Source of the DNA: Psammoneis japonica
Lineage: Eukaryota
Direction: 5' to 3'
Length of the DNA: 64,000 nt
Assembly (NCBI GenBank): GCA_008632985.1
Contig: QPGO01000092.1
Span: 186,001 to 250,000, forward strand
Below, piece by piece: positions 2,390 through 60,502 of this stretch. The position numbers and the translations under genes are program-made. Position 1 is the stretch's first letter; the number at the start of each line of letters is the position of its first letter. The notes under the pieces are model-generated. The model saw nothing but the letters and a program-made list of their open reading frames with translations. It was not told the origin of the DNA and searched no databases.

Positions 2390-2530
2390 GTTGCTCTTTC
2401 TATCTCTTGGTGCTTTCGCTTCTTCTTTTGTCAATTCAAAACAGCCTCTTGTGATGAAGTTGAACTCTTCAATCCCACACACGTTGCGGTCGTGCTGTTC
2501 GAATTTTCTTGTTGGTTAGCAATGATGCGT

Positions 2531-5154
2531 CAGAGTTGGATAAATGCTGTGTGATGATGCTCAGGAAGCGTAAAGACTCATAACCACTCAGAATGCTGTA
2601 CACTACCTAACGAGTACGGGAGGTTCTCAACAACCCAAGAGGCAAAGAAATTACCACTCGGCCAATTGTTGAGTCCCTTCTCCGCACACACATTTAGGCA
2701 TGTGTTGTGCACAGCATCATCACACAGCATTTATCCAACTCTCCCTCTCGTCGCAGGATGGGTCATCGCCATGTGGCGCATCCGCACGGCGGACTTACGA
2801 AATTTTGACCATGCACTCCCTCTGTTGGGCAGGCGGATGGGTCAGCGCCATGTGGCGCATCCGGCCAATGCCAAGGGAGGAGTGGGTTCGAAGCCCAACC
2901 GCCCACCCCGGATGGAGTTGGAAAGGGGCAGGCCGAGAAAGAAAAGGAGGCTTGGATTTGAGGCCGACTCGAGCCAGCGACCTCAGGAAGCGCAAAGACT
3001 CATGGCCACTCAGAATGCTGCACACCACCTGACGAGTGCGGGAGGTTCTCAACAACCCAAGAGGCAAAGAAATTGCCACTCGGCTGGTTGTTGAGTCCCT
3101 TCTCCGCACACACATTTGGGCATGTGTTGTGCACAGCATCATCACACAGCATTCACCCAACTGCTCAGAATGCTGTGCACCACCTGACGAGTGCGGGAGG
3201 TTCTCAACAACCCAAGAGGCAAAGAAATTGCCACTCGGCCAATTGTTGAGTCCCTTCTCCACACACACATTCAGGCATGTGTTGTGCACAGCATCATCAC
3301 ACAGCACTCATCCAACTCTCCCTCTCGTCGCAGGATGGGGTGTCGCCTTGGGGCGCATCCGCACGGCGGACTTACGAAATTTTGACCATGCACTCCCTCT
3401 GATGGGCAGGCGGATGGGTCAGCGCCATGTGGCGCATCCGGCCAATGCCAAGGGAGGAGTGGGTTCGAAGCCCAACCGCCCACCCCGGATGGGGTTGGAA
3501 AGGGGCAGGCCGAGAAAGAAAAGGAGGCTTGGATTTGAGGCCGACTCGAACCAGCGACCTCAGGAAGCGTGAAGACTCATGACCACTCATGATGCTGTGC
3601 ACCGAGTGTGGGAGGTTCTCAACAACCCAAGAGGCAAAGAAATTGCCACTCGGCCAATTGTTGAGTCCCTTCTCCGCACACACATTTGGGCATGTGTTGT
3701 GCACAGCATCATCACACAGCATTTGTCCAACTCTCCCTCTCGTCGCAGGATGGGGTGTCGCCTTGGGGCGCATCCGCACGGCGGACTTACGAAATTTTGA
3801 CCATGCACTCCCTCTGATGGGCAGGCGGATGGGTTGGCGCCATGTGGCGCATCCGGCCAATGCCAAGGGAGGAGTGGGTTACAGCATTCTGAGTGGTTAT
3901 GAGTCTTTACGCTTCCTGAGGTCGCTGGTTCGAGTCGGCCTCAAATCCAAGCCTCCTTTTCTTTCTCGGCCTGCCCCTTTCCAACCCCATCCGGGGTGGG
4001 CGGTTGGGCTTCGAACCCACTCCTCCCTTGGCATTGGCCGGATGCGCCACATGGCGCCAACCCATCCGCCTGCCCATCAGAGGGAGTGCATGGTCAAAAT
4101 TTCGTAAGTCCGCCGTGCGGATGCACCCCAAGGCGACACCCCATCCTGCGACGAGAGGGAGAGTTGGACAAATGCTGTGTGATGATGCTGTGCACAACAC
4201 ATGCCTAAATGTGTGTGCGGAGAAGGGACTCAACAATTGGCCGAGTGGCAATTTCTTTGCCTCTTGGGTTGTTGAGAACCTCCCGCACTCGGTGTGCAGC
4301 ATTGTGAGTGGTCATGAGTCTTTACGCTTCCTGAGGTCGCTGGTTCGAGTCGGCCTCAAATCCAAGCCTCCTTTTCTTTCTCGGCCTGCCCCTTTCCAAC
4401 CCCATCCGGGGTGGGCGGTTGGGCTTCGAACCCACTCCTCCCTTGGCATTGGCCGGATGCGCCACATGGCGCTGACCCATCCGCCTGCCCAACAGAGGGA
4501 GTGCATGGTCAAAATTTCGTAAGTCCGCCGTGCGGATGCGCCACATGGCGACAACCCATCCTGCGACGAGAGGGAGAGTTGGACAAATGCTGTGTGATGA
4601 TGCTGTGCACAACACATGCCCAAATGTGTGTGCGGAGAAGGGACTCAACAACCAGCCGAGTGGCAATTTCTTTGCCTCTTGGGTTGTTGAGAACCTCCCG
4701 CACTCGTCAGGTGGTGTGCAGCATTCTGAGTGGTTGTGAGTCTTTACGCTTCCTGAGGTCGCTGGTTCGAGTCGGCCTCAAATCCAAGCCTCCTTTTCTT
4801 TCTCGGCCTGCCCCTTTCCAACCCCATCCGGGGTGGGCGGTTGGGCTTCGAACCCACTCCTCCCTTGGCATTGGCCGGATGCGCCACATGGCGCTAACCC
4901 ATCCGCCTGCCCATCAGAGGGAGTGCATGGTCAAAATTTCGTAAGTCCGCCGTGCGGATGCGCCCCAAGGCGACACCCCATCCTGCGACGAGAGGGAGAG
5001 TTGGACAAATGCTGTGTGATGATGCTGTGCACAACACATGCCTAAATGTGTGTGCGGAGAAGGGACTCAACAATTAGCCGAGTGGTAATTTCTTTGCCTC
5101 TTGGGTTGTTGAGAACCTCCCGTACTCGTTAGGTAGTGTACAGCATTCTGAGTG
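2531..5154. repeat. ~422-bp unit tandem array arranged as a large inverted repeat (about 3 units forward, then about 3 units reverse)
   Basis: ctcaggaagcg recurs at ~2560, 2982 and 3559 (a 155-bp internal duplication lies at ~3011-3165). Its reverse complement gcttcctgag recurs at 3911, 4326 and 4748. Orientation switches at ~3880. Confidence 0.95.
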
Positions 5155-5438
5155 TCAGTCGTGCGTCGGTGAGGTGGGCAATTCTACGTGAGTTCACTAC
5201 TAAAAACAACGTATGTAGCCTTCGTACAAATTTGTATGGGCAATTGAAGGCGATGGATGGACAGACGCTACCGCTTACTTGTTTTTTCCTGTGTAGGGTT
5301 GTATGAAAGACGCGTGTATGTAGAAATGTACTGCCGTGATGGTGGATCGTCGACCGCACGCTTTTCATCACGACGACGCTTGCACAGAGCAACCCAGACA
5401 AAAACCGTGTCTTTTATCGTTGCTTATTCACGTTAACC

Positions 5439-6384
5439 ATGGTCAGTAGTAATACTCGCACGTTGGCTTGATGGAAAATGAGTGTTGCATATCGTGTGAT
5501 AGTGGGAATTGCAACTGATTGATCGGGTAGCGGCGACACAACATTATCGTCATGGCGGCATGTTTTTCTCGTCGTCGTTGGAATTGGTACTGAGTGCTTT
5601 GTCTGTCCGTCGAGATGATTGTGAAGGACCATAAGAAAGTGTGAAGCGGTCGACCACGGTGGTTCTGATCTCATATGGCTTTACAATTCCCCCGTATGCC
5701 CTAGCACTATTGATGTTGAGTTGTAATGTAGTTCTTCTCACATTTTCACGCTTTTTTTTTCTGTTGAAAAATTGTGATTCAGGGTATTACACGCGAAGGC
5801 CGCCACAAGCGTCGTGAGACGGGAGGACGTCGGGAAAAGTTCCGCAAGAAGCGCAAGTTTGAAATGGGACGCCCGGCTGCCATGACCAAGATTGGCGAAA
5901 AGCGCGTCCATGTCGTACGATGCATGGGAGGAAACCTCAAGTTTCGAGCCTTGAGGTTGGACAGTGGTAACTTTTCGTGGGGTACCGAGGTTTGCACGCG
6001 CAAGGTGCGTGTGTTGGATGTGACCTACAATGCCTCCAACAATGAATTGGTCCGTACCAAGACTTTGGTCAAGGGAGCTATTGTGTTGGTGGATGCTCAC
6101 CCCTTCAAGACGTGGTATGAGTCACACTATGGTGTCAAATTGGTGTCAAAAAGCAGGCACAGCAATCGACGGAAGAGGAGACCAAGCAATCCAACCACGT
6201 CAAGGCCAAGATGGCTTCCCGCCAAAAGAACCGTTCTCTTGAAGGCGCCCTTGACCACCAGTTTGCTTCTGGACGTCTTTTTGCCAAGATCACATCCAGG
6301 CCTGGACAGAGTGGGCGATGCGATGGTGTTATTCTTGAAGGACCGGAGCTTGCCTTTTACCAGAAACAGATGGCAAAGAAATAA
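5439..6384 (+). CDS. RPS8: 40S ribosomal protein S8 (eS8)
   Basis: ATG|gtcagt intron 5442-5782 (start exon inferred), then [15 protein letters not shown]...[19 protein letters not shown]...[17 protein letters not shown]. After a 1-nt shift near 6143 the frame gives [22 protein letters not shown]...K* (TAA 6382-6384). Confidence 0.95.
5612..5672 (+). ncRNA. Candidate intronic box C/D snoRNA in RPS8 intron 1
   Basis: Terminal stem gaga/tctc encloses a C-like box ATGATTG (5615) and a D box CTGA (5665-5668), inside an unusually long r-protein intron. No target identified. Confidence 0.3.
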
Positions 6385-6431
6385 GTATTGTTTCTAAGAG
6401 AAAATAAACTATAATTGTAGTGTAAAGAATT

Positions 6432-7523
6432 TTATTGTGCTGTCTTTTGGTTTGTTGTTGTAGTGTCGCTTATGGTAGTCGCTTTATTCTCTCTACAGTA
6501 GAGAGTAGTTGAGTAAGCCTTGAGTTCATCGTTCACTTCCAGAGCTTGCCGGTACGCCCTCAAAGACCAGCAAGCATGTTCCGTGTAATCTTCCATGAGC
6601 CAGACAGTATTTCGCACTAGTGATACGTGAGTGAGAGTGACACAATGTTGATCACAATCAGCAATGGACCGAACAATATTTGGCAACACCTGTTCATTGT
6701 AGTTAATCATGAGCTTCCTCGTAGCGTCGTGGTGCTCCGCACTTGCATTGGAAGGTAAGCCAATGACTCGACCAATGGTGACATGAATGAGATTCTTTGG
6801 TCGAGTAGTGAGCTCGCCACCCAAAACATCAATGGCAATGTCAGCCGAAGAAGTTCGCAAGTGCGCGTACCGTGATTCTGAACTTGGCTGCTCTACAAAA
6901 CCAGCAATCATGGCTCCGTCCGGCGTCCACAGAATGGAGTCCAACATCAAGACTGGGCATGAGCAATGTTTTGAATGGTATTCCGATAGACGAGTTTCTA
7001 GTACTTGTCGGAGCTCGTCGTCGATTGGACGCCAATTTTCCTCATCTTGTTCTGAATGTAGCAAGCTTGGGTGTTCGTGAAAGATGGACACGCAAATGTG
7101 ATGAGACGACTCGTGTGGTCGAAAAATAAAATTATCCATGTCTTTCTCTTTTTGATTTTAGAATATCATTTTTCACTGTTGCGCAAAACGTGTCGAATGC
7201 CTCGCTGCATTTCGCGAGAATCTGTCGTGCGTCGGAATTGGGACAAAGCATGGCAAAGACACCAATCGGACCGTGCTTTCAAAATTAGGAGGGCGAAGCT
7301 TTCCATCTGAAGACTTTTTCAACTTCTTACAAAATTTCTTCGAGTCGGGCCACGCAGGTGTCGCTACGGCATCCGCACAAATCTTGGCATACGTTTGGGA
7401 GAGGGCATTATCGTAGCTCTCAACTTGGTTGCGTCTTGGGCGATGCTCAGAAAAAGCTGCAGCATGATGTACGGTTTTCATAATGCCATGGAAGAGCACC
7501 CACACAAGTAGGAAGTTCCGCAT
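6432..7523 (-). CDS. Hypothetical secreted/organellar protein, possibly 2H phosphoesterase-like
   Basis: Signal-like start MRNFLLVWVLF at 7523. Downstream ORF 6432-7139 has two spaced His motifs (HICV, HVTI) resembling 2H HxT motifs. Exon joining is uncertain. Confidence 0.4.
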
Positions 7524-7898
7524 TCGACGAGCAGGTGACGCGGTGCGCCTTATCGCCGGACTTTTCTTCTCATCATCGTCTCTCTCCGTTGGTTCCACTT
7601 TTTCGAATTGACAAATGTGTCTGATTTCTTGTAATTTGTCGCAATTGTATACCCTATAGACACAAAACATGATACTAATCCGTTGAAATAGGTATAGCTA
7701 CATTAAGCGTGTCATAAATGTATAAAGAGTTATAGCGCGAGGCGTCGTAGAAAAGACAGTTGATAGAGGCGCTCAAAATTTCAAATTTTTTGTGAGACCG
7801 AGCTGAAATCTCTTTCGTCCCATCATTTTCACCATGAAAGCGTAGCAGCGATGGATGACCTTTTGTGACTCTTCAAGAAAGAAGAATATCACTAGGTC

Positions 7899-10800
7899 GT
7901 GGAAACTTTGAGCATGTTTGACACATCGATTAGAAGCTTTCAAGAGAGAAGAAGAAGGAGACGGGACACTTACTTTGAGCCAACCGGCAAAGCGCACGCA
8001 AACGCTGCAAAAGCGTTGAAAGAAAACCCCGAGTACGCGAAGTATTCCAGACTGTTAAAAATTGGTATACCTACTGCAATGGTGAAGTTTGAGATTGAGC
8101 GTGATGGAAAAGATCCGTCTATTGTGAACTTGCCGGACAACGGCGTCTCTCCATCTCTTTCCAGGGACGATCAAGATGCAAAGTCGCAACCGGACATCTC
8201 CACTACCCGTAAATCGAGGGAAGCGTCACAACGAGCCAATATATATGAGATTGCAAGTGCATGTCAACAAACGAGGAAAGGTTCTTTAGGAGTTTTTCTT
8301 CAGAAGAAGCGGCCCAGTCTCAGATTTAGGGATCACGAAGTGGTTTCAATGAATGGCTCACTCAATCACCAGCAGGGTAGAAGAGATTCACCGTTACCGA
8401 AACTTGAAGAGGAGAAGCATATAGATGATTCAGACACGTCTGAAACTGCAAGCTTGTCCAACTCGCGAACGAGTATTGGTGACGCGGAAATACATCCAAT
8501 GAAAGAATCACGGTCGTTCGAGAAGGAGAGTATTGGTTGTCATCATAGCGCACACGAGGTAGTCAATGACAAACTGTGGGCTCATCGACAAACCATCATC
8601 GGTGAGAGAAAAAGTTCAACGGAGGCGTCAACCTTCATCGACGTTGCCGGCGATGATAGGCTACGCCGAGAAAACTTCTATAAAGTTGAAGGAAACGAAA
8701 GCTTGACTGAAAGGGTTGGTGGTTTAAGGGAAGTTTTTGTGAAAGCTTCTGACGATGGTAGCGACACAGAGGATTCATGTTCAAGTCTTCCTCAACAGCT
8801 TCTATCATCGTCATTATTGAGCAACGTAATGAATGAAGTGTCTCCAATCGAAGAAACGAACGGACATGAACTTCCTTTACGAGAAGATCCTCGATTCTCC
8901 AAGTATTTTAAAATGCTGAAGACAGGTGTACCGAAAGATGCAGTGAAGCATGCCTTAAAGCGAGACAATAAAGATCCCGGAATCATTGACCTCGACCCCA
9001 ACAAAAGTCATGAGTCCCAATGCAAAGTAGAGGATGCTACGGTCCGCGAAGACGAAGGAAGCAACAATGAGGATCCATACACAGAACTTCTTGAACAGCT
9101 TTTATCGCCGTCAATATCGAGCAGCCTTACCAGAGCGGTTTCTCCAATAGAAGAAAAAAACGGACGTGAAATTCCTCTACGAGAAGATCCTCAGTTCTCC
9201 AAGTATTTTAAAATGCTGAAGACCGGAGTACCGAAAGATGCGGTGAGGCATGCCTTGAAGCTCGACAATAGAGACCCCGGAATCATTGACCTTGACCCCG
9301 AGAAAAGTCATGAATCGCAACGCAAAATGGGAAAGGCTACCACAGGCAATGGCGATGGTAGCTACACGAAGGATCCGTACTCAGAACTCCTGCAACAGAT
9401 CCTAGCACCTTCAACGTCAACCAGTGCCATTAAGGGCACGCCAACGGAAGAAGAAACAAACAGCTGTAAAATTTCTCTGCAAGATGATCCTAAGTTCTCC
9501 AAGTATTTCAAAATGTTGAAGAGGGGTGTACCGAAAGATGCCGTGAGGCACGCGTTACGGCGTGACAACAAAGATCCGGGAGTCATTGACCTCGACCCCT
9601 TCGAAAGTCATGATTTCCAACGCAAATTAGTGGATACAACGGCCTGCGACAACGAAGGAAGCAATCTTGGGCCTCAAACAGCGACAAAATGTAGGCCAAC
9701 AATGGCCCAATGCGAGTCAGAAGTGAAAAGCTTATGTCAAGCTACTCCATCGAGTGAGCCTTCAGTAAACTTGACAACAACAGCCAGACCTTTCCGTCGG
9801 AAAAAGCTATATTGGACACCAATTGACACCAACAAAATTCATAAACGGACTATTTGGGCGCATTGTAGGGCTGATTTCTCCATCGAATCCCTAAAATATG
9901 ACGTTAAGGAGTTCGAACGACTTTTTATGGAAATCAATCGTCCAGCAGCAACGACGAATGCCGTAGGTGGCGGACAACGTCCGTTGATAAAACAGAAGAA
10001 AGGAGATCGATTTATTGATAGCAAGAAAGGGCTGAACGGTGGGATCATTCTCTCGAGGCTCAACATTGAATACTCCAAGCTTGCACACATGATTGATACA
10101 ATGTAAGGACCATTTTGATCGCCACATAATCGTCTTTGTGACCCATTCCGTAACTCACAACATTTATTTCCGCTGCGAAGGGACTACGGAAACCTCAATC
10201 CTATGCAGTTGCAATCAATAAAGAAAATATTGCCATCTTACGATGAAAGAAAGGCACTCTTTGAGTACGTCAGCGTCAACAACGCTTCAGCCGACAAGTT
10301 AGAAATGGCTCTGCACGATTTGAGTGAATGTGAAAAATTCATGGTTGCAATGCTGGATGTGCGTAGGCCGACGGAAAAGCTTGATTGCATGATCTTCCGC
10401 GACACGGTTTACGACCGATTAGATGAACTTGTTATCGCGTTCAACATTGTGCGCCAGGCATGCAATGAAGTCATGTCTTCTATGAGACTTAGGAAACTGT
10501 TCGCAATGATACTCACCGTTGTTAATCATATCAACACCGGTAGCGAGGGACGTTTGGTAGCAGGTTTCAGCTTGGACACTCTGCTAAAGCTTGGACACTC
10601 AAAAGCATTTGACAAGAAAACGACTATTCTTCAGTATCTCGTCAAAGTAACCAAAGAGAATGACGAGTCTTTGCTGTTTGTGAGAAGCGATATAGAATCG
10701 GTAGAGAGAGCATCCAGCATCCAGCTAGACAACCTGAATGCCGATCTCAAGACCCTACGAGATGAGCTTTACGAGGTCCAAAAATTCGTCAGTGACGACG

Positions 10801-11093
10801 ACCTCATTGTCGATGAAGAAGAAAGCGTGAGCGTTGAAAAGGACGTTGCTGATGACAAAAAGAATCCAATGAAAAGTTTCATATCGCGGGCGGCATCAGC
10901 TGTACAGGGTGCAGACAAAGCGTTTGATGAATTGAAGAGAAAGTATTCAAGAGCTCTGGATTACTACGGCCAAGACTCCCAAATGCCAAGCGAAGAGTTC
11001 TTCGGTACACTTCAGAAATTCGTGCGAGAGTTTGATGCGGCAGCAGGAAACATAGCAGCGTCGATAACGGGGAAAGCTCGCTCAGGGGGGTAA
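7899..11093 (+). CDS. Formin (FH2 domain) with four CCDC53/WASH-like 'DPxFSKYFKMLKxGVP' repeats
   Basis: RRKKLYWTPI, FIDSKKGLNGGIILSRL, GFSLDTLLKL, KTTILQYL and EEFFGTLQKFVREF are FH2 motifs. Intron 10103-10180. Repeats at ~8015, 8877, 9177 and 9477. Confidence 0.88.
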
Positions 11094-19332: not shown

Positions 19333-22300
19333 ATGGGTTGCGGTTCCAGTAGGGACGCGGTCGTCCAAAATCCTCCCAGGAAATCGCCGGAAGGAGTCGA
19401 GGTGACGCTACAAGACTACAAACAACGGGAGCTGTTACTCCCCGAACATGAAAGAAGTGATTGCAACAGGTGCTGTGTGGGATCAAGAAAAGTAGGCATC
19501 AACGATTCAGAGAAAATTCCATCATCGACACGGAGTACTTCATCTGCAAAGTCGAGGAAAGTCTCGTTTCGAGGCATGCTGAAACGTTCACAGTATTCAA
19601 AGCTCAAGAATGAGATCAACGCTGATGTCGTGATGCCCAAGCACAATGGGATTGAGGTTGTTAGATCGTTTGACCTAGAATTCGGGGTCGATGAATATCA
19701 TGCATCCAAGTTTAGAAGAAAGGCTTCGTGTTACGAAGAAATCTTCTGTCCGAACAGAAATACCGTGGGGAAAACACATGCAGATTCTGACTTCGGTTCT
19801 CATCCAAGATCTCGTTGTCTTGAAAGGAAAAATTCTTGGCCCAGAGATGGTCGGCATTATGTGGGAAATAACAATCGGAAGCGGTTGAGGCATTGGAATG
19901 AAAAACGAGCACAGCAATTGCGACCGAGTAAACGAGCGAGGAAGGTCAATGTGAATTTGTCGTTGTTACCCCACGAGGACACTTTAAAATCGCCACCTTT
20001 TCTAACTCGGCTCGATCCGTTCGCATCCATGGAAGTCCTTGTAAGAAAACCAATCAAAATGTCGCTGAAAGCGTGACTTCAATTACGTCGATCACTGACG
20101 ATCCGACCGCATGGAGCACAATTTCTTCAATCGCGATGGAAGACGGGCTTCGAACTCGTCCTGCGACACCATGTAATGAATCGAACAAAAAGTCGACAAA
20201 TGACGGCCTGATGAAGATGCTTCTGGAGTACCAGACGATGCAAATATCAATACCGATTCTCTTGAAAGCGAGAAGACTGCGTGCCAAGAGTCTGCAGATG
20301 AGTCATCAAATGACGTAGATCCCAGACTGAAGGATGATCCCGAGTTTTCCAAATACTTCAAAATGATGAAGGTGGGCATGCCTAAGGAGGTTGCCGCTCA
20401 CGCCATGCAGCGAGACGGTAAGGATCCAGGCATACTTGATCTCGATCCTGAGAAGAGTCTCGTATCGCAACGTGCTGAGTCAAATCAAAGGAAATAACGG
20501 ACGATGGCGGTCCCCCGTTGAAGGAAGATCCCGAGTTTGCCAAATACTTCAAAATGATGAAAGTCGGCATGCCGAAGGAAGTTGCAGCCCATGCCATGCA
20601 ACGAGACGGTAAGGACCCGAGCATACTGAATCTCGATCCCGAGAAGAGTCTCGAATCGCAGCGTGTGGAAAGCAATTCAAAAGCGAGCACGGAAGATGAC
20701 GGGCCACCGTTGAAAGAAGACCCGGAATTCGTCAAATACTTCAAAATGATGAAAGTTGGCATGCCGAAGGAGGTTGCAGCTCACGCCATGCAGCGAGACG
20801 GTAAGGACCCGAGTGTACTTGATCTCGACCCGGATAAGAGTCTTAAATCTCAATTGGGGAAAGCAATTCGAAGGAGTGCAAGGAAGAGGACGGACCCCCG
20901 TTGAAGGATGATCCTGAGTTCTCCAAATACTTTAAAATGATGAGAGTTGGGATGCCGAAGGAGGTTGCAGCTCACGCCATGCAACGAGATGGCAAGGACC
21001 CAACAGTACTTGAGCTCGACCCTGTGAAGAGTTTAAAGTCGCAGCGCGTTGAATGCAATTCCAAGGAGAGCAAGGAAGATGATGGACCTCCGTTGAAAGA
21101 CGATCCTGATTTCATCAAATATTTTAAAATGATGAAAGTTGGCATGCCGAAAGAGGTTGTCGCTCACGCTATGCAACGAGACAGCAGGGATCCGAGCATA
21201 CTTGATCTCGATCATGAGAAGAGCTTTAAGTCGCAGACTGTGCAAGTCAAAAAGGCAGCTCCGAAGGAAGAAAAGAAGAAGGTTCGCCGAAAGAAGATAT
21301 TCTGGACACCCATCTCAGAAGAAAGAATCAATGACAATTCAATATGGTCGATGTGCCGTGGATGCTTCGGAATGGACACTTTGAAGTATGACGCAGAAGA
21401 ATTCAACATGCTGTTTACTGAAACTTCCGATCCTTCAGAAAAGAAGATCGAGTCTAGTGGCAAGATGAAACAGCAGAAAGTGAAAATCCAGCTCATTGAC
21501 GGAAAACGGGGAATGAACGGGGGCATCATTTTGGCTCGCATAAAAATTGAGTACTCGAAGTTGGCACAGATGGTCGACACAATGTAAGATATCACTTTCC
21601 TGCTGTTTCAACTCGTTTCTTTCTATCTATCTTATTGGTGCTCTTCTTTGGTTGTCTTTTGAATTGTAGGGAACCTGGAGAGCTCGACTCGACTCAGTTG
21701 CGCGCTTTAAAGGAATACCTCCCAACGGACGAAGAACGAAATTCTCTCAATGGCTTTTTGACTGGGGGCGGCTCTCCTCGACAGGATGGCTTGAGCGAAT
21801 GTGAAAATACATGATGGAAATGTTAAAGGTGAAGAATCCTGCTGCGAAATTCGACTGCATGCTGTTTCGCAGTCAGTTTACCCCTAGATTGGACGATATC
21901 AAGAATTCGATAGAAATCGTGGACAGGGCTTGTGACGAGGTGAAATCATCTGAGAAGCTACGAGGCATGATGGCAATTATTTTGACTGTGGTCAATCACA
22001 TAAACACAGGGGGGCAGGGCCACGGAAATGTTGCCGCGGGCTTCGGCCTTGATGCATTGCTTAAGCTTCAAGAAGCGAAAGCTTTCGATAGAAAGACTAG
22101 TGTTCTCGAATACCTCGTGAAACTTGTGAAAGAAAACAACGAGTCCCTGCTAGAATTTAAGGATGAAATCGATTCGATCTCTGACGCCAGTACAGTGCAA
22201 CTCGACAGCCTAGAGAATGATTGCACGACTCTTCGTGGTGAACTTTCCGACGTTGAGAAAACCACCACAGAAGAAGCCGATCGCATTCAACAAGAGATAT

Positions 22301-25158
22301 CTGAAGTCGAGCGAGAGAGTTCGAGATTAACTGAAAACATCGGGCTCACGCTTGGTAGCAATTCAGACCATGGTAGGACTCCCATGGAGACTTTCGTCAT
22401 TCTAGCTTCACTTTCAATGGCGGAAACCGAAGCACAGTTGGACGCGCTGAAGGGAAAATATGGCAGTCTCCTGCAATACTTCGGAGAGGATGAGAGCATG
22501 CAGACTACAGACTTTTTTGGGACGATCCATAGATTTGTGTTGGCCTTCAGTGTATCTGTTGAAGAAGTGGGAAGAAGGAGCGAGCAAAGGTAGGTTTTTT
22601 ATATCTCTTTGATTGTTATCACGTCAGAACAGCGCCTCATTTTTTCCCGTGTTTTCTACTGTTAAGCTCAAGGAAAAGTTTAAGTCCGCTGCTCGGAAAG
22701 TAAGCGTTGCAAGAAAGATGGCGAAAAATCATTGGAAGAACAGTCCAAAAATGAACGAGCGAAAAGGGGCGGACACAAAAGATCCAGCTCAGTTACTTGG
22801 ATCGATTGGACAGGTCACGGCTGAGAAAGCTCGGGCCCGTAGTGCCACCAGAAAGGAAGAGGCTTCGATCAGTCGACGTGATATTGCAGCAGCTGCAGCT
22901 CAAGACGCGCTTGGAGCGAAAAAGAATACCCAGGCATCGAGAGAAGCAAGTGGATCTGATGATAATGCCACTGCGGCAGCACAGACTATCGCCGAAAGGT
23001 TCAGTGATAACAGCCAAGAGAGATCTTTCATTGTAGAAACTAAAGTGCAAGATCGACAAGCTGAGAATGCAAACAAGCCAACAACTGTTGTTGATGCAAA
23101 AAGGCCTCCCACAGTTATCCAGAATCCAATCGTCGGTCAGGGCGGAATAGCCGCAGCAGCTGCTGCTGCAGCAGCGGCGCGGCGACTCAAAAATAAGAAT
23201 TGTACAGTGGTTCAAGCGAAATCACTATCAGTTGGGACTTTTGGTGATTCTGTTGTTGTAGATCGAACAAGTGTTGATCCTGTTGATGTTGACGCTGCAA
23301 TGCCAGGCTCATCTTCGAGCTCTGTGAATGGAAAGGTGATATAGCTGCCGCATCGGCCCTCCCTGCAGACAAAAAGGAGGGAGCCATGGTTGCAGCAAAG
23401 TCAATGTCAGTTGGATCCTTTGGTGGCGACACCGTTGTCTTCGATCAGACCAGGGATGCATCCTCTGGTGATAAAATGTCTACTTGTGGAATTCCCTCTA
23501 TCGCGCACGATGGAAAGGCAGCTCCCTTAAGCAATATTGGTATTGCGGCCGCTGCAGCCGCCGCGGCAAGAAGGCGTGTTTCTGCTACTGGTAACTCAGC
23601 GACTGACAAGGTCGGTATTGCCGCTGCAGCAGCTGCCGCAGCTGCTCTTCGATCTAGAGGGAAGCATTCTGTCACAGATGAGGCGGATCTCGCCCATGCG
23701 AATATCGCGCCAGTGCAGCACAAACGTGGTGCTTCTATTGGCGTTGGTATTGCTGCGGCTGCGGCGGCCGCAGCTAGAAGTCGTCACGCCTCTGAGGCAA
23801 GAATGACTGCGAAGCTGGTATTGGTGTCATTGCTGAATCAGCGGCAGCGGCGGCAGCAAAGCGTGCCACTGCGGCAAGGAACCGCGTTAATGTTACTGAA
23901 AACTCAGTGACTGGCAGAGGCGGTATTTTTGCTGCAGCAGCTGCCGCCGCTGCGCTTCGATCTAAAGGGGAACATTCTGTCACTAGTGAGATTGGTGTCG
24001 TCCAGACGAATAGAATTCCCGTTCAGCAGAAGCGTGGTGCTCCTAATGACCTTGGTATTGCTGCGGCGGCGGCGCGGCGGCCGCAGCTAGGAATCGTTGC
24101 GCCTCTTTTGGCAAGAATGGCTCCGTTGATACTGTTTCTGTCACGGACAACTCAGTGACCGGCAGAGGCAGCATTGCCGCCGCAGCAGCTGCTGCCGCCA
24201 ATGCGCGTCGATCTAAAGAAGAGGGCCCTGCCACCACTGACACGGATCTCGCGCAGACAAATAGTACACCAGTGCAACAGAACCGTGGTGCTCCTGCTGA
24301 CGTTGGTATTGCCGCAAGGAATCCTCACGCGTCGGTTGACAAGAAAGACTCCGCACTTGGTGTTGCTGGCATTGCAGAGGCAGGCGAGGCGGTAGCAGCA
24401 AAGCCCAAAGTCGAGAGCGCAGTAGTATGTGCAGAAGAAGCATCCACTCATCAACCTGGAACAAGTGCCGCTTGGGTGGGTAAGAAAGCTTTTGTGACAA
24501 TGGAAGAACCCCTTCGCTCGGAAGAATTGATATTGCTTCGGCTGCTGCTTTTGCTGCTAGGAATCGCCAGTCGTCTACTAACGTGGGCCTCGCAGCTGCG
24601 AAAACGTCACGATCCCAGAAAAGTGTTGAAGTTGCTTCCGCGGCCGCTGAAGAAGCTCGGACTCGTGCCTCTCCCATGGGTGGGATTGCAGCAGCAGCCG
24701 CGGCAGCTGCTGCAATGCGTGTGAGAAAGGCTCAATCCTCTGTCGATCAATCGCAAGGCTCGAAAGAAGACGCAAAAACTTCTGTGGCGGCCGCTGCTGC
24801 TTTGGCTGCTGCGTTGAAGAGGCGCGAGGAAGCTCACGATGTATCAGTTGCAGCAGCGAACAGTCCGTTGCCTTGCATAGATTCTTCCAAAGATGCAGCA
24901 GCTGCTGCTTCCGAGGCTAGGCTTGGCGAAGCCGTTGAAGTGGCCGCGGTTGCTGCCAAGACTGCACCTGATCTCACGCACGAGTCATCAAAAGCAGTTG
25001 CTGCTATGACTGCGGCAGCTCGTCAACAGGAAGCTGCTTCTTTGGCGCAAGCGGCCCTGAAAAATTCGGCGCGCAGAGATCCCGTAAATGCCAAGGCTGC
25101 TGTCGCACCGCAGAACGAAGCCGTGGCGGTAGTTGCGGCTTCTTTGGAGGCTTCGTGA
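19333..25158 (+). CDS. Second formin paralogue: MGCGSS N-terminus, five CCDC53-like repeats, FH2 domain, long poly-Ala repeat tail (frameshifted in this assembly)
   Basis: LKxDPEFxKYFKMMKVGMPKEVAAHAMQRDGKDP at ~20328, 20518, 20710, 20901 and 21092. FH2 motifs RRKKIFWTPI, GFGLDALLKL and DFFGTIHRF. Intron 21584-21669 is at the same position as in the first formin. Linkage of the N- and C-terminal ORFs is inferred. Confidence 0.78.
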
Positions 25159-36329: not shown

Positions 36330-39300
36330 CTAGCCATTGAAAAGCTCGTCAAGTTCAAATTCTGAGCGGAAGCTTCGACGATTCGGGCACACTTTGCTCA
36401 ACAAATTCTTCTTTTCTACTCCAGCCCACTGTGAAATTGCTGGCCAGATTTGATCAAAGGAAGTAGTAGGTAAGATACGACCGCGACCCAAATTCAGCGG
36501 GCCGTTCTCTGAAAAATCCTTTGGATACTCTCCCAAGATTCTCCCGCCCTTGACAGAACCGCCTAGCATAAAGTAATTTCCACCCCATCCATGGTCAGTT
36601 CCGCCTCCCGAGTTCGCGCTCAAAGTTCTTCCAAAATCAGATACCTGAACTACCGTGGTACTGTCGTATACTCCTTGACTCTTCAACTCGGCAACAAAAG
36701 ATCCAATCGCATCGTTAAGCTCGGCGAAGTTATTTGCGAGGCCTTCCGCTAACCCCGTATGGTGGTCCCAGGTTCCATGTTCCAGATAAAAGACATCCGC
36801 ATTCCTTCCTCTTACTTTGCGTGTTTTGATGAGTCTGGCAATGATCTCGAACTTTTTTCCCAAGTCAGATTCACCAAAATCCTGGGTCACGTCTGTTGCC
36901 TTTAGAGCTTGATACAAGTCTTCGTTCTGGTAGAGGGATTGGAGCAAAGAGGTTGACCACGTACTGGCCATAAATCCGCTGTCTGGTTTTGTCGCATTGT
37001 TGAGGTCACCCATGGCTCGTTCCATTTCAGATTTTGTCATGGTGGCGGAACCAATTGGCATGAACCGATTGACTCCGGTGTTGCTCAACGATATCGGCGG
37101 ATCCGACACTCCCTGCTTGCCGACCAAAGCAATTGAACTGGTATCAATTGATATGGATGCTACCGATTTTCCTGAATGAGTCAAGGCGTTTGCAAGTCTT
37201 CCAAGAATTCCTGTTCCGACCGCTTCACGATACAAGTCTTGGGTGCGCATCTCAAACGTCTGTGTATTATGCGCAAAGAGTTGTGTCGGCGTGTCTGCTT
37301 CATACGTTTCCTTCGTTGTGGGCTTTCCAAGGACCCCCGCATTGGCAAAGAAAACCAAGTCTCCATCTTTGTAAAGCTTCTGCAAGTTGGGTAACTTTTC
37401 GTGCAGTCCAAAGGTGTTGCATCCAGCTTGGTTACCTGCCGGTATTGAAAGCAGTCTCTGCTGCGACAAGCGTACAGAGCCTCTCGCTCTAGCATATCGC
37501 GAATATGCGTCAGCCCCATTGTGCACTCGGCAATTGTTTGGGACGAGCATGTTGAAAGAATCGCATCCTCCGTCTAACATGAGCATCACAATCGCCCTGT
37601 ATTCATCCTTGTCAACCGCCACTTTTCCACCAACCTGTTCTCTCCCCGTTCCCTTCAACTTCACGGTGTTGGTTGTGTGAAACTCGGGCGTGGTCGTGAT
37701 GAGTTGCTGTGCCACGCGCAAGGCGGTATCTGCATCTGATTGATAGAGGGCGTCTTCGTAAGCCTTGGCGATGACCTTTCGGCTTTGGACACCAAGGCGG
37801 CCGGATGTGAGTAAGGTAGCAAGCTCATTCACGACGCTCTGTGGGTTGTTTCCGCTCGGTTTATATTTTAACACACCGGTGGAGTCGGCAAAGTTGCCGT
37901 CATCCGTGCAAATCCTCTCTCTGAATTCCTGTGAATCAAAGCCGAAGCCATAAGCGCACGATGATAGCCCGTACTTCACGAGGGAGTGCAAACCATTCAC
38001 GAGATTAATATTCTTTGCCATCTGCTCCAAGGAAACAAGTATTTGAAACAAAATGCTGAGCAAAAGAAACGAAACAAAAACAGCGAGGGAAAATCAGGGT
38101 GCGAATACGTACATCTAGGAGCTGAGCTTCTGGAGCTACAAGTGATGCGCTCGATACCGGTCCTTCAGGCGCGAACTCGCTGATAGAGAACCAAGCCAAT
38201 GTCATTATTCGTGAGCAATGATTACAACGTTGCACTTGGATCTGTACGAGTCCACAACTTACCTGTGAAAGAAGCTAAAAACGGATTGTTGCTCGTGAGC
38301 CATCTGGCCAATGAACATGTTCATGTGTTTGAAAATAGCCTGAGGAGCAGGAACGCCATCGCGAGGTTTTGGTTGGAAATCCATGCTCCGCATCATGCTA
38401 ATCACCCTTAGGAGAGGCTCTCTGATGGATCCGTGGGACGGGTCTGAGTCGAGAATAGCTGATCGAGCTTCTCTGTCAAGTAGAATGCACGCAGATGTCG
38501 CAGATAGGTCCCCGTACTCTGCTTTACCGAACGAAAGCCCTGCAGACTTGTAAACCCCGGTCCGAAAGGCTGCTGAGCACTCAGCAACATATCGCGGACT
38601 AGGATTCGAGATACCAAATCGCTGAATAAGCAATGTGACCAAGAACGGGGGAGTGTTTGGATGGTACAGCAAGTGCTCAAGCAAAGCGTCCACTTCGTAC
38701 ATGACATCCCGAACGTTGGTTTCTGAAGGTATGAGACTCATAAAGTGAACGGGGTTTCGAAATGAAAATCCCCCTTGGACCTGCACAATCGATCTAGCAT
38801 TCTTCAAAAAACGAGTGCGGCCGGTCGAGTCCTCGACTTCGAATATTGTATCGGCCCCCATCCTCGAATACCTTGTGTGTACAGTGATGGAATCATTCAG
38901 TCTCGTTGAGGCATACGTACCGCTATCGAAGGAACTTGGGTCAGGCGCCCCAATATGCAAAGCTGAGAGAATTGAGTTCACATTGTTGGGGTTGCTGGAA
39001 AACACCATGGTTTCTTCGACTTGAGTATTGCATAAGCAGTTTTCCCCGTCAATCATGGCACATTCACCACAATTGTTAAGCGATGCTTTTGGAAACCCGT
39101 TAGCCCAAACCACCTTGAAGAAATTGGTCGTGCTCTCATCAACATGGCGCACCTTGCCGTTGAGAACGGGCACGTCGTGGACAATGGCCACTTGGCCACG
39201 TGGGCTGACTTTCACCTTTATTTTGCATGGAGTTTTTGCCCAGTGATAGACAACATTGTTTTGGTACGACTCTGACCCCACATCCACCCTTTGATACTCG

Positions 39301-47890: not shown

Positions 47891-47922
47891 AATTTGTCAT
47901 GGTCTACAGGGGAAAACTATTT

Positions 47923-53003: not shown

Positions 53004-53340
53004 AGCTAGCGAGGGTTTGTATTCAACGCATTTACCCCGTTTACTCTTTACGTATTCCTTGAGCAGTAGATACTACGAATAGTTTCCTACAAACGAGCGC
53101 ACGTTCAATCAATCTCAATCATCTCCATTTCATTCATGACAGCAGCAGCATGTCCATTTTCCAATCGCTGTTTCTTGGCGACGCCTCCGTTCACTTCTGT
53201 GGTACGCTTGCGTGACGTGCTACTTGCCTCTGACTTGCGTCGGGTCAACAACTTCAATCTCATCATCGTCTTCTTCTCATATTCCTTCTTGGAAGCTCCC
53301 TTGGCGGAATCGTCCGTTTTTGGCTTCCGTACAATATATT
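53004..53340 (-). repeat. Diverged duplicate of the UBA2 3' coding end and 3' flank
   Basis: tagcgaggg...tacgtattccttgagcagtagata...tcaatcaatctcaatca...gcagcagcatgtcc...ttggcgacgcctcc at 53007-53190 matches 53585-53785. Confidence 0.85.
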
Positions 53341-53700
53341 CGACTTGTCGTCCCCAATGACATCAAGAAATTCCCTTCCTCGTTGTCTTCGTCATCTAGC
53401 TCATCTCCGTCACTAGAAGCTCCGACGCTTTGCATTCTTCCAGAGAATGTGCCGATCGGTATGAGCGCCGGAGTGAGATCCTGTATGGAGATAAATATCA
53501 TGTCCCGTATGCATGGGGGGCCGCATGATAGTCTTCCTCTTCGTGTTCTCCTTCCTCTTCGTTATGAACGCTGAAGTGAACTATAGCGAGGGTTTTTATT
53601 CAATAATGTTTACACCCATTACGTATTCCTTGAGCAGTAGATATTCTGCATTACAAATAATAGTCTCCCATTCCCCGTGTGCAAACAAACGAGCACAAAT

Positions 53701-59766: not shown

Positions 59767-60502
59767 GATGGCAAGGATGACATGGTCAAGTCGACAGATA
59801 CAGTATACAGTCGATAGCTCGTTACACGTCTAACTTTCGTCCCATCTCCCATCCCATGACCCATGATTTCAGTGTCATTGTGTCGTACAAAATGGTTGGA
59901 GAAGGTGTACAAACCAATCAACTCCCGCAGCTTTTTACTGTCTGTGCACGATCGCGACCCCCAGACCCCGACGACACTCCACAACAACAACAAATGGCAA
60001 ACGTCTCGGTCCATCACGTCCTCACTCCCTTCCTTCTTTTTTGCTCTGTCCTTGACAGAAAAGCTGTCCACACGTCATTTGCAATGTGCCTTGACAACAA
60101 GAGATGCTGAGGAGCTCCAACTGACTGACGACATGAAACTCGGTGGCAAGCTGGTTTTGGAGACGGGGACATCTGGCAGCTGTGCGGGGCAATCCCATCT
60201 TTGTCAAAACAAATTCATCTCATTTTTTCTCAAAACAACATTGGCCCTATTGGCATCGGGTGTGCCTGTGTGCAAGGCACTGAAGGACAACACGACCTTC
60301 GTGCGCCACACAGATCTCGAGCTTGAGGAAAATGTTTGAGTTGACAATGAGAGTTCAAAGCACACCTGAGAGTTGCTGGAGGAAAATCAAATTCCAAGGT
60401 GTTTGCATCTTTGTTGAACTGACACCAGAGATGATGGAGCAGAGGACAAGATTGACAAAGGTGCTGCCCGGAACAAATCAGTTGTTGAAACCTCACATGG
60501 AC

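What the first reader, a model, noticed from the sequence alone, without database searches (positions are those of the whole stretch)
2560..5154. Three-state TA/CA/TG sites in the 422-bp array show direction and two-strand action
The edge copy at 2591 (gaatgctgTAcacTAccTAacgagTAcggg) reads gaatgctgCAcacCAccTGacgagTGcggg at 3012 and gaatgctgTGcacCAccTGacgagTGcggg at ~3168. cattTAggca (2691) becomes cattTGggca (3113) and cattCAggca (3268). gcgTAaag becomes gcgCAaag (2990) and gcgTGaag (3567). ggcgcTAaccc (~4889) corresponds to ggcgcCAaccc (~4053) and ggcgcTGaccc (~4468). T->C and A->G occur within 20 bp of one copy, which argues for DNA-level editing on both strands rather than editing of a single RNA intermediate. 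These changes account for most differences I see between units, although a few non-TA transitions exist.
Basis: seen in the sequence. Interest (0 to 1): 0.88.

Follow-up and report, generated by a model that had tools for sequence, protein, structure and literature searches.

The report
TpA-centred mutation pattern in diatom transposon
A 2.6-kb hairpin-shaped mobile element in a diatom genome is built of near-identical repeats that differ almost only where one copy reads TA and others read CA or TG, which points to an unexplained, very site-specific mutation process that is neither fungal-type RIP nor ordinary CpG decay.

Summary
Window 2534-5154 is a foldback-like insertion of eight full or partial copies of a 422-bp unit in two inverted arms. 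It lies between eIF1A and RPS8 genes of a diatom. Sequencing contigs also hold the empty site, so the insertion is hemizygous, with a (G)TCAG duplication.

Of 422 alignment columns, 35 vary. Eighteen of these lie in the 24 columns of TA-containing dinucleotides (p=2.5e-17). Eleven of 12 TA sites vary, only by transitions, and none ever reads CG. The 24 CpG sites are almost untouched.

TA is the hub state. Seven of the 8 sites with both CA and TG also carry TA. A TA-to-CA/TG-only model needs 31 events, a C-to-T-only model 45. RIP indices run opposite to RIP. Changes are split 24:24 between the strands.

The direction is not proven. At several sites G restores a Watson-Crick pair in the unit's hairpin, and no genome-wide copies could be fetched.

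Best reading (0.4): TpA-directed A:T-to-G:C transitions on both strands, enzyme unknown. Rivals are a mosaic of family variants, a RIP-like process, RNA editing plus reverse transcription, and an assembly mosaic.

The parts
2529..2533 (.). Left copy of the target-site duplication (G)TCAG
   Evidence: The same 4-5 bases flank both ends. An X1 contig joins 2510 to 5154 and holds them once (tables 5, 5c, 8).
2534..2561 (-). Left terminal fragment: an inverted 28-nt copy of the 3' end of the 157-nt hairpin module (unit positions 155-182), in the TA state
   Evidence: blastn gives unit 154-183 against window 2561-2532 at 100% identity.
2560..2981 (+). Unit U1 (full, 422 nt), the edge copy. TA is kept at 9 of 11 variable TA sites.
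2982..3162 (+). Unit U2 (positions 1-181). TA is kept at 0 of 10 sites.
   Evidence: TRF finds a 155-nt period at 3009-3317.
3164..3558 (+). Unit U3 (positions 28-422). TA is kept at 0 of 9 sites.
3559..3880 (+). Unit U4 (positions 1-329, with a 7-nt deletion shared with U6). TA is kept at 0 of 9 sites. A GA-to-TG change at alignment columns 36-37 lengthens the hairpin stem.
3881..4013 (.). Unpaired centre of the foldback: fragment U5 (3881-3920, unit positions 41-1, identical to U1, TA at 2 of 2 sites) plus the part of U6 that has no partner in U4
   Evidence: Inverted repeat I1 has arms 3158-3880 and 4014-4736 with 133 nt between them; I11 is 41 nt at 100%.
3921..4335 (-). Unit U6 (415 nt, 7-nt deletion). 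TA is kept at 2 of 9 sites.
4336..4757 (-). Unit U7 (422 nt). TA is kept at 1 of 11 sites.
4758..5154 (-). Unit U8 (positions 26-422), the edge copy. TA is kept at 8 of 9 sites. Its outer end is the 5' end of the hairpin module.
   Evidence: X1 contig 5114-5268 has 0 differences at depth 35.
5154..5158 (.). Right copy of the target-site duplication (G)TCAG
2585..2741 (+). The 157-nt hairpin module M of U1. Other copies lie at 3007-3162, 3164-3318 and 3584-3733 on +, and at 4162-4310, 4577-4732 and 4999-5154 on -.
   Evidence: Consensus fold has 45 pairs. Minimum free energy is -41.9 and -41.4 for the TA-state copies against -47.7 to -59.3 for the inner copies. A solo copy with other flanks is seen in X2 contig 9.
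1747..2373 (-). Flanking gene, eIF1A-like (context only)
   Evidence: PF01176, E 3.1e-25
5774..6397 (+). Flanking gene, ribosomal protein S8e (context only)
   Evidence: PF01201, E 1.2e-41. The best named relatives are diatoms.

Best explanation
Window 2534-5154 is a hemizygous insertion of a foldback-type, non-coding mobile element in a diatom. It has two ~1.3-kb inverted arms. Each arm is a tandem run of a 422-bp unit, made of a 157-nt hairpin module and a 265-nt spacer.

The copies differ mainly through one process. At TpA dinucleotides the A:T pair is replaced by G:C on either strand with equal frequency, so TA becomes TG or CA. CpA/TpG, CpG and other sites stay almost untouched.

The founder unit of the array carried TA at these sites. 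That state survives in the two edge units, in two short junction fragments and in at least one solo copy elsewhere in the genome. The inner units have lost nearly all their TA.

Because only transitions occur and the 5' neighbour is almost always T, the most likely chemistry is of the deamination type: A to inosine, read as G. It would act on both strands of the foldback's DNA, or on sense and antisense transcripts that are copied back. Oxidised thymine at TpA that mispairs with G would give the same pattern.

Where the A of a TA faces a C in the module's own hairpin, every inner copy reads G. Either mismatched, exposed adenines are preferred, or hairpin-templated repair adds to the process.

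Shown: the anatomy, the insertion polymorphism, the site specificity, the strand symmetry and TA as the hub state. Inferred: the direction at every site, that it acts on DNA, and the chemistry.
For: 1. Specificity. Of the 24 columns in TA-containing dinucleotides, 18 vary, against 17 of 398 others (p=2.5e-17). Eleven of 12 TA sites vary. None of 38 CA-majority sites, 1 of 24 TG-majority sites and 3 of 24 CG-majority sites vary.
2. Transitions only. The 48 changed site-copies are all CA or TG. Outside TA columns, 5 of the 17 variable columns include transversions. This argues against mere selection to lose TA.
3. TA as hub. Eight sites have both CA and TG, and 7 of them also have TA. Of 69 sites with only one of these states, 5 have TA (p=2.5e-6). 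No copy reads CG at any of these sites.
4. Directional parsimony on the mirror tree. TA-to-CA/TG only needs 31 events, the same as unconstrained. CG-to-CA/TG-to-TA only needs 45. On a star tree the counts are 48, 38 and 68 in the same order.
5. Composition. TA/AT is 0.05-0.15 in the inner units, 0.45-0.47 in the edge units and 0.53 in the whole window. The inner units are therefore the anomalous ones.
6. Strand symmetry. There are 24 A>G and 24 T>C on the window's + strand, mixed within single copies.
7. Independent copies with TA. The 41-nt centre fragment and the 28-nt left fragment are 100% identical to U1. X2 contig 9 carries a solo module with other flanks and 2 differences from U1.
8. 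Sites where A faces C in the hairpin read G in all inner copies. Pair 32-101 is G-C in 5 copies and A.C in 2. Pair 59-69 is C-G in 5 and C.A in 2.
9. Contrast. Another tandem array in the same window (46941-47900) shows ordinary CpG decay, with CG surviving in one copy.
Against: 1. No copy of the family outside the window could be fetched. No genome is held and metagenome and viral scans were empty. Polarity therefore rests on 8 linked copies with a reticulate history.
2. At sites 44-45, 54, 61, 98 and 108-110 the G state completes a Watson-Crick pair with an invariant partner. A hairpin born perfect would make TG the older state and TA the derived one there. That is a G-to-A change, the opposite direction.
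3. The deepest contigs shown carry a mix of states: G at 98, CAA at 108-110 and TA at 140 (depth 947); CAA at 26-28 and TA at 16-17 (depth 751). U1 is therefore not simply the family consensus.
4. Singletons such as TAA at 108 and TA at 288 in U8 read by simple majority as C-to-T changes.
5. In Phaeodactylum mutation-accumulation lines, TG, not TA, is a mutable context and the bias is GC to AT (PMC6604790, passages read).
6. No known natural enzyme makes A-to-G changes in DNA with such strict TA preference (recalled). ADAR enzymes prefer 5' U only mildly over A (recalled). Here the TA-to-AA ratio is about 45-fold, my estimate.
7. One TA site (cTTACGa) is unchanged in all 6 copies that have it.
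8. The inner units of a 2.6-kb palindromic repeat are the hardest part to assemble. Two bins, 3548-3651 and 5004-5107, had no contig laid on them.
Confidence: 0.4

Rival explanations
1. There is no dedicated mutator. The ~100-copy family carries old polymorphisms at these sites, and the array units are mosaics. They would be made by gene conversion among family members, GC-biased mismatch repair in heteroduplexes and hairpin-templated (quasi-palindrome) correction. Array ends are simply homogenised less than the centre.
For: Unit words reach depths of 3000-9000 against about 45 for the flanks, so the family is large.

U1 resembles U8 in the hairpin module but U7 in the spacer (columns 204-215 and 266). 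That shows exchange between units.

U4's GA-to-TG change includes a transversion and makes a perfect 14-bp stem, which looks templated.

Seven of 15 observed A>G/T>C changes stabilise the hairpin, against 18-26% of 68 control changes.

Centre repeats are homogenised more than end repeats (PMC5615363, passage read).
Against: This moves the problem but does not solve it. Polymorphism that is three-state, transition-only and confined to TA sites still needs a TA-centred process somewhere in the family's history.

Hairpin templating cannot explain the CA states, which break pairs (for example +1.4 and +2.5 kcal/mol). It also cannot explain sites 16-17, 26-28 and 288-289, which lie outside the hairpin.

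GC-biased conversion needs variants that already exist.
Confidence: 0.22
2. A RIP-like or 5-methyl-CpA deamination process makes C-to-T changes on either strand at CpA/TpG. TA would then be the product and the edge units the mutated ones. The enzyme might be the diatom DNMT4 family, which is related to fungal RID.
For: Diatoms have DNMT4 enzymes related to RID, of unknown function (PMC9998398, passages read).

The TA states of U1 and U8 break six G-C pairs of an otherwise near-perfect hairpin, all as A.C mismatches, as G-to-A change would do.

The deepest contig shown has G at site 98.

TG is a mutable context in Phaeodactylum (PMC6604790).
Against: The RIP indices run the wrong way. TA/AT is 0.05-0.47 and (CA+TG)/(AC+GT) is 1.4-1.7, and the edge units sit at the window's background of 0.53 and 1.33.

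Of 62 CA- or TG-majority sites without TA, 61 never vary.

C-to-T change alone cannot make CA and TG at one site unless CG was ancestral. No copy has CG there, while 138 of 141 other CpG site-copies are intact.

This model needs 45 events against 31.
Confidence: 0.12
3. RNA-level adenosine deamination (ADAR-like) acts on the long hairpin transcript of the foldback. The edits are fixed in DNA by reverse transcription over several rounds, from both strands or after arm flipping.
For: The arms are 96-97% complementary over 578-723 nt, so a transcript would form long double-stranded RNA.

The 5' neighbour is T, and adenines facing C are converted most fully. Both are ADAR traits (recalled).

The 133-nt unpaired centre keeps TA at 2 of 2 sites.

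Inverted Alu pairs are the classic ADAR target (PMC526178, abstract seen in the listing).
Against: A>G and T>C changes are interleaved within single units and split 24:24 between the strands.

The edge units pair as well as the inner ones yet keep their TA.

No reverse-transcriptase hallmarks were found (no poly-A, no TG..CA ends), and the array ORFs match no Pfam family.

ADARs are not known outside animals (recalled).
Confidence: 0.08
4. Assembly or polishing mosaic. The true array has uniform units, and reads from other family copies were folded into the inner units. The edge units stayed correct because they are anchored by unique flanks.
For: The family is highly repeated. Eighty-one of the 112 X1 contigs laid fit two places. 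No contig spans the array. Two bins have no cover. The TA-rich pieces are exactly those next to unique sequence or a unique junction.
Against: Inner units differ from one another rather than converging on one majority state.

Eighty-two of the 112 contigs laid are at least 99% alike, and no other letters are listed inside the array for X1.

Shared structural markers, namely the 7-nt deletion in U4 and U6 and the 155-nt extra module, fit a real mirror history.

Even if this rival is true, the three-state variation would still exist among family copies.
Confidence: 0.08
5. Ordinary decay of methylated CpG: CG goes to TG or CA on either strand.
For: This is the textbook source of CA/TG alternatives at one site. 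A neighbouring array (46941-47900) shows it.
Against: None of the 76 site-copies reads CG and 28 read TA, which CpG decay cannot make. Of the other CpG site-copies, 138 of 141 are intact. At 44-45 a CG would not pair with the invariant CA of the other hairpin arm.
Confidence: 0.02

Closest known systems
Repeat-induced point mutation (RIP) of ascomycete fungi (RID/DNMT4-dependent C-to-T at CpA)
   Same: It is tied to repeated DNA, acts on both strands and gives only transitions. It uses the same three dinucleotides, TA, CA and TG. Diatoms have RID-related DNMT4 genes (PMC9998398, passages read).
   Different: Here TA is the hub and is lost rather than gained. CpA/TpG sites are untouched. The RIP indices are reversed. 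The organism is a diatom.
ADAR hyper-editing of inverted-repeat double-stranded RNA (e.g. Alu pairs; PMC526178, abstract seen in a listing) and edited retroelement copies fixed in genomes (recalled)
   Same: A-to-G changes, a 5' U/T neighbour, a preference for adenines facing C, and a long inverted-repeat substrate.
   Different: The differences here are in genomic DNA and fall on both strands within one unit. The TA requirement is far stricter. No ADAR is known in diatoms (recalled).
CpG decay in methylated repeats
   Same: A three-state pyrimidine-purine site with changes on either strand.
   Different: The hub is TA, not CG, and the CpGs of the unit are intact. A control array in the same window shows the ordinary pattern.
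Foldback transposons with internally repetitive inverted arms (Drosophila FB, Galileo, Tetris; PMC3573991 and PMC4079207, titles and abstracts seen in the listing)
   Same: Anatomy: long inverted arms built of tandem subrepeats, a short middle, a target-site duplication, many genomic copies and a link between transposon and satellite-like arrays.
   Different: No transposase was found. The duplication is 4-5 bp (FB has 9 and Galileo 7, recalled). This one is in a diatom. Those families are not known for a TpA-specific pattern.
Very-short-patch repair (Dcm/Vsr) of E. coli, which turns CTAG into CCAG or CTGG (recalled, not checked in a paper)
   Same: A repair system for T:G mismatches drives TA to CA or TG on either strand, depleting TA-containing words.
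   Different: It is bacterial and bound to the Dcm motif. Here any TA is hit, and no such glycosylase is known in diatoms.
Quasi-palindrome (template-switch) mutagenesis (Ripley model, recalled)
   Same: U4's GA-to-TG double change makes the stem perfect. Several TG states also complete stem pairs.
   Different: It cannot explain the CA states or the sites outside the hairpin.

Membership tests
RIP (fungal repeat-induced point mutation) | Product enrichment: TpA/ApT at least about 0.89 and (CpA+TpG)/(ApC+GpT) at most about 1.03 (thresholds recalled) | tested here: not met
   The units give 0.05-0.47 and 1.39-1.73. The window background is 0.53 and 1.33.
RIP (fungal repeat-induced point mutation) | C-to-T at CpA across the duplicated sequence | tested here: not met
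   Of 62 CA- or TG-majority sites without TA, 61 are invariant. A C-to-T-only model needs 45 events and a CG root at 7 sites, against 31 events.
RIP (fungal repeat-induced point mutation) | Substrate: linked duplicates longer than a few hundred bp and more than 80% identical | tested here: met
   The 422-bp units are 92-97% identical, direct and inverted.
RIP (fungal repeat-induced point mutation) | A RID/DNMT4-type gene in the genome | not testable with these tools
   No genome is held for this window. The literature reports DNMT4 in 31 of 60 diatom species (PMC9998398).
ADAR-type hyper-editing | A-to-G with 5' neighbour preference U > A > C > G (recalled) | tested here: inconclusive
   The 5' T dominates: 48 changed site-copies at TA, against a few at AA and GA and none at CA. 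This is much stricter than the recalled ADAR preference.
ADAR-type hyper-editing | Long double-stranded RNA substrate | tested here: inconclusive
   The arms are 96-97% complementary and the modules fold at -42 to -59 kcal/mol. Transcription was not observed.
ADAR-type hyper-editing | Changes are seen in RNA, on one strand per molecule | tested here: not met
   The differences are in genomic DNA, split 24:24 between the strands and mixed within units.
CpG decay of methylated DNA | CG present as the ancestral state in some copies, with CpGs depleted in general | tested here: not met
   There are 0 CG among 76 site-copies, and 138 of 141 other CpG site-copies are intact.
Foldback-type transposable element | Long terminal inverted arms made of tandem subrepeats, with a short middle | tested here: met
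   Arms 2534-3880 and 4014-5154 with a 133-nt centre.
Foldback-type transposable element | Insertion polymorphism with a target-site duplication | tested here: met
   An X1 contig joins 2510 to 5154 and holds one (G)TCAG. The window has it on both sides.
Foldback-type transposable element | Many copies in the genome | tested here: met
   Word depth is up to 3000-9000 against about 45 in the flanks, and a solo module with other flanks is seen.
Foldback-type transposable element | A cognate transposase | not testable with these tools
   The array ORFs have no Pfam match and no genome is available to search.

The most novel reading that the evidence does not exclude
Diatoms may have a repeat- or hairpin-directed base-editing process that erases TpA. 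It would convert A:T to G:C on either DNA strand inside foldback and tandem repeats. That would be a mirror image of fungal RIP, with different chemistry (adenine deamination or thymine oxidation) and the opposite compositional outcome. It could also contribute to the strong TpA deficit and CpA/TpG excess seen in this window, the only part of the genome examined.
Probability: 0.2. Interest if true: 0.9.

Novelty: new variant of a known kind. Interest (0 to 1): 0.62.

Why it matters
Repeat-targeted point mutation is known as a genome defence only in fungi, and there it makes TA from CA and TG. A process that removes TA from repeats, with near-complete specificity and on both strands, would be a new kind of endogenous mutator or editor. 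It would bear on three things: how diatoms tame mobile DNA, what the RID-related DNMT4 and other nucleic-acid-modifying enzymes of diatoms do, and why the DNA examined here is so poor in TpA.

The locus also makes the question testable. It is hemizygous, short enough to be spanned by one long read, and holds converted and unconverted copies side by side.

If the pattern turns out to be a mosaic of family variants or a decayed perfect hairpin, it is still a clean example of a foldback transposon seeding a satellite-like array in a diatom.

Tried and rejected
- **Copies elsewhere.** Two exact-pattern scans of metagenome contigs and one of viral contigs found 0 loci.
- **Sequencing runs.** Three runs of one sample and one study were listed, and no RNA holder was listed. 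Two bins (3548-3651, 5004-5107) had no contig laid.
- **Known RNA families.** Rfam gave only three sub-threshold miRNA-model matches. ARAGORN found no tRNA, although the spacer has T-arm-like motifs.
- **Coding potential.** The six ORFs of 164-178 aa inside the array have no Pfam match.
- **Earlier findings.** Five look-ups gave nothing that bears on this.
- **Literature.** Eight counted searches found no report of TpA-specific hypermutation in diatoms or in foldback elements. The SPLASH paper was irrelevant.
- **Strand-coordinated runs of changes.** These would be expected from a processive deaminase. They were not significant (26 same against 15 different, shuffle P=0.09).
- **DNA polymerase eta WA-to-WG errors during repair synthesis.** Considered and set aside. 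The recalled preference for TA over AA is a few-fold, while here it is about 45-fold, and other errors are lacking.
- **Selection against TA.** Set aside because there are no transversions in the 18 variable TA columns, against 5 of the 17 other variable columns.
- **Dinucleotide micro-inversion.** This would turn TG into CA directly. Set aside because the flanks are not complementary at most sites.
- **Leakage into the flanks.** The nine or so differences between the insertion allele and the empty allele show no consistent direction.
- **Other inverted repeats.** None of 50 nt or more lies in 5200-64000.
Full report
**Where the window comes from.** It is a gene-dense eukaryotic sequence of 48% G+C. 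The finding lies between an eIF1A-like gene (1747-2373, - strand) and a ribosomal protein S8e gene (5774-6397, + strand). The best named relatives of the S8e protein are diatoms such as Seminavis, Phaeodactylum, Nitzschia and Eucampia. No whole genome is held for the window.

**Anatomy.** The unit occurs nowhere else in the 64 kb. Between 2534 and 5154 there are eight full or partial copies of a 422-bp unit in two inverted arms.
- The + arm holds U1 2560-2981, U2 2982-3162 (positions 1-181), U3 3164-3558 (positions 28-422) and U4 3559-3880 (positions 1-329).
- The - arm holds U5 3881-3920 (positions 41-1), U6 3921-4335, U7 4336-4757 and U8 4758-5154 (positions 422-26).
- The arms are 96-97% complementary over 578-723 nt and leave 133 nt unpaired in the middle.
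- Shared markers give a mirror relationship: U1 with U8, U2 and U3 with U7, and U4 with U6. The markers are a 7-nt deletion in U4 and U6 and an extra 155-nt module in the + arm.
- The spacer of U1 resembles that of U7, so units have exchanged sequence.
- Each unit is a 157-nt module that folds into a long nested hairpin of 45 consensus pairs, plus a 265-nt spacer.
- The left end of the element is a 28-nt inverted piece of the module's 3' end, 100% identical to U1. The right end is the module's 5' end.
- The six ORFs inside the array match no Pfam family. Rfam and ARAGORN find nothing.

**The element is mobile and hemizygous.** Three runs of one sample hold parts of the stretch. When they were laid on it:
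- An X1 contig of 391 nt (depth 48.6) joins 2510 to 5154. It skips 2643 nt, has 22 letters between the two sides and holds a single (G)TCAG. The window has (G)TCAG on both sides of the array. This is an empty-site allele with a 4-5-bp target duplication.
- Word depth in the unit reaches 3000-9000 against about 45 in the flanks, so the family has on the order of a hundred copies.
- X2 contig 9 (917 nt, depth 35) carries a solo 158-nt module with unrelated sequence on both sides and 2 differences from U1.
- Together this is the anatomy of a foldback-type transposon with internally repetitive arms. Compare Galileo and Tetris (PMC3573991, PMC4079207; only the listing was seen).
- The run may be the assembly's own source, so it is not independent proof of the letters.

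**The observation.**
- In a 422-column alignment, 35 columns vary. Eighteen of the 24 columns in TA-containing dinucleotides vary, against 17 of 398 others (p=2.5e-17).
- Eleven of 12 TA-containing sites vary. Their 76 site-copies read TA 28, CA 18, TG 30 and CG 0, with no transversion.
- None of 38 CA-majority sites and 1 of 24 TG-majority sites vary.
- Of 141 site-copies at the 24 CpG-majority sites, 3 have changed.
- TA is kept at 9 of 11 sites in U1, 8 of 9 in U8 and 2 of 2 in U5. It is kept at 2 of 9 in U6, 1 of 11 in U7 and 0 of 9-10 in U2, U3 and U4.
- On the window's + strand the changes are 24 A>G and 24 T>C, mixed within units. Strand runs are not significant (P=0.09).

**Direction.**
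- CA and TG differ at both positions, so a site with both needs an intermediate, either TA or CG.
- Eight sites have both CA and TG. Seven of them also have TA and none has CG. Of 69 sites with only one of these states, 5 have TA (p=2.5e-6).
- If TA were made from CA or TG by C-to-T change, it should be no commoner at sites that have both. It is about ten times commoner.
- Directional parsimony on the mirror tree gives 31 events for TA-to-CA/TG only, equal to the unconstrained minimum. C-to-T only needs 45 events and a CG root at 7 sites that no copy retains. Ties at two-state sites were not resolved.
- The RIP indices are reversed. TA/AT is 0.05-0.15 in the inner units and 0.45-0.47 in the edge units, against 0.53 for the window. 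The TA-poor inner units are therefore the unusual ones.
- The short junction fragments and the solo copy also carry TA.
Classical RIP and CpG decay cannot be the whole story.
- A control array at 46941-47900 shows ordinary CpG decay, with CG surviving in one copy.

**Evidence that complicates the direction.**
- The TA-state modules fold at -41.9 and -41.4 kcal/mol (RNA parameters). The inner ones fold at -47.7 to -59.3.
- At sites 44-45, 54, 61, 98 and 108-110 the A of TA faces an invariant C, and the G state makes a Watson-Crick pair. Pair 32-101 is G-C in 5 copies and A.C in 2. Pair 59-69 is C-G in 5 and C.A in 2.
- Seven of 15 observed A>G/T>C changes stabilise the fold, against 18-26% of 68 control changes.
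- If the hairpin was born perfect, TG is the primordial state there and TA arose by G-to-A change.
- The deepest contigs shown carry G at 98, CAA at 26-28 and 108-110, and TA at 16-17 and 140-141. The family's common states are therefore a mix.
- A coherent history is TG first, then TA in the founder of this array, then TG or CA again. That remains inference.
- U4's GA-to-TG change includes a transversion and creates a perfect 14-bp stem. It is best read as a hairpin-templated change, so template switching also acts here.
- Template switching cannot explain the CA states, which break pairs, or the sites outside the hairpin.

**Is it specific to this element?**
- The window as a whole is poor in TpA (odds ratio 0.50; 0.47 in long ORFs and 0.57 elsewhere) and rich in CpA/TpG (1.23). 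CpG is near expectation at 0.92.
- A direct repeat pair at 60500-60817 and 61294-61611 lies next to an ORF with a weak Mutator-like match. It has 3 CA-versus-TG doubles, 4 TA/CA differences and 1 TA/TG difference among 29 mismatches.
- The CpG-decay array has few such differences.
- The process may therefore reach beyond this element, but the data are too few to say.

**Mechanism.**
- Only transitions occur, the 5' neighbour is T, and both strands are hit equally. Adenines facing C are always converted.
- That profile fits a deamination-type change of A in 5'-TA, or oxidised T at TpA that mispairs with G. It would act on both strands of DNA, or on both transcripts followed by copying back.
- It does not fit selection against TA, polymerase eta errors, or a single edited RNA strand.
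- No natural enzyme with this specificity on DNA is known to me, and none could be searched for here.
- In Phaeodactylum mutation-accumulation lines the bias is GC to AT, with TG rather than TA mutable (PMC6604790, passages read). A general mutational bias is therefore an unlikely cause.
- Diatom DNMT4 enzymes are related to fungal RID and have no known function (PMC9998398, passages read). That makes a repeat-directed process conceivable, but the chemistry here is the opposite of RIP.
- The edge-versus-inner contrast has a mundane partial explanation. Centre repeats of arrays are homogenised and exchanged more than end repeats (PMC5615363, passage read).

**Verdict.**
- TA as hub and action on both strands are supported.
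- 'Editing of DNA' and TA as ancestral at every site are not shown.
- I put 0.4 on TpA-directed A:T-to-G:C change on both strands as the main source of the variation.
- The rivals are a mosaic of family variants with templated and biased repair (0.22), a RIP-like process (0.12), RNA editing plus reverse transcription (0.08), an assembly mosaic (0.08) and CpG decay (0.02).
- The decisive analysis needs the whole genome and spanning long reads, which were not available.

Noticed in passing
window 46838-47900: A non-coding tandem array with a period of about 331 nt in three and a bit copies, 76-86% alike. Its differences are mostly CG versus CA/TG, with CG surviving in the last copy. This is ordinary CpG decay and served as a contrast to the 422-bp array.
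   Followed up: partly
window 60500-60817 and 61294-61611; ORF 61601-63181: A direct repeat pair (91% identical, 29 mismatches) with 3 CA-versus-TG doubles and 5 TA-versus-CA/TG differences. It lies just upstream of an ORF with a weak Mutator-like transposase match (PF20700, E 1.3e-5, below the curated cut-off). It may be a second mobile element showing the same kind of variation.
   Followed up: partly
whole window: There is a strong TpA deficit (odds ratio 0.50; 0.57 outside long ORFs) and a CpA/TpG excess (1.23), while CpG is near expectation (0.92).
   Followed up: partly
window 2510-2533 and 5154-5268 versus X1 contig: The empty-site allele differs from the insertion allele by 3 substitutions and a 3-nt indel within 22 nt on the left, and by 6 substitutions in 115 nt on the right. 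There are 0 differences in the 211 nt further left. The two haplotypes are quite diverged right at the insertion.
   Followed up: no
window 7899-11093 and 20328-22593: Two paralogous formin-like genes. In each, an array of CCDC53-like (WASH subunit C-terminal) repeats precedes an FH2 domain that is split over two ORFs, probably by an intron. The coding repeats have periods of 300 nt and 192 nt.
   Followed up: no
window 36330-38063 and 38259-41228 (- strand): Adjacent DUF1501 and DUF1800 genes lie in a diatom nuclear window. As far as I recall this pair is typical of bacteria such as planctomycetes.
   Followed up: no
window 2742-3006 (spacer of U1) and its copies: The 265-nt spacer holds two tRNA T-arm-like motifs on opposite strands and a 31-nt polypurine tract. 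It also has an internal 29-nt duplication (unit positions 197-225 and 276-304). This hints at a tRNA-derived or retroelement-derived origin, but ARAGORN and Rfam find no tRNA.
   Followed up: partly
window 53007-53296 / 53584-53888 and 23557-24404: Further diverged direct repeats (68-76% identical), not characterised.
   Followed up: no
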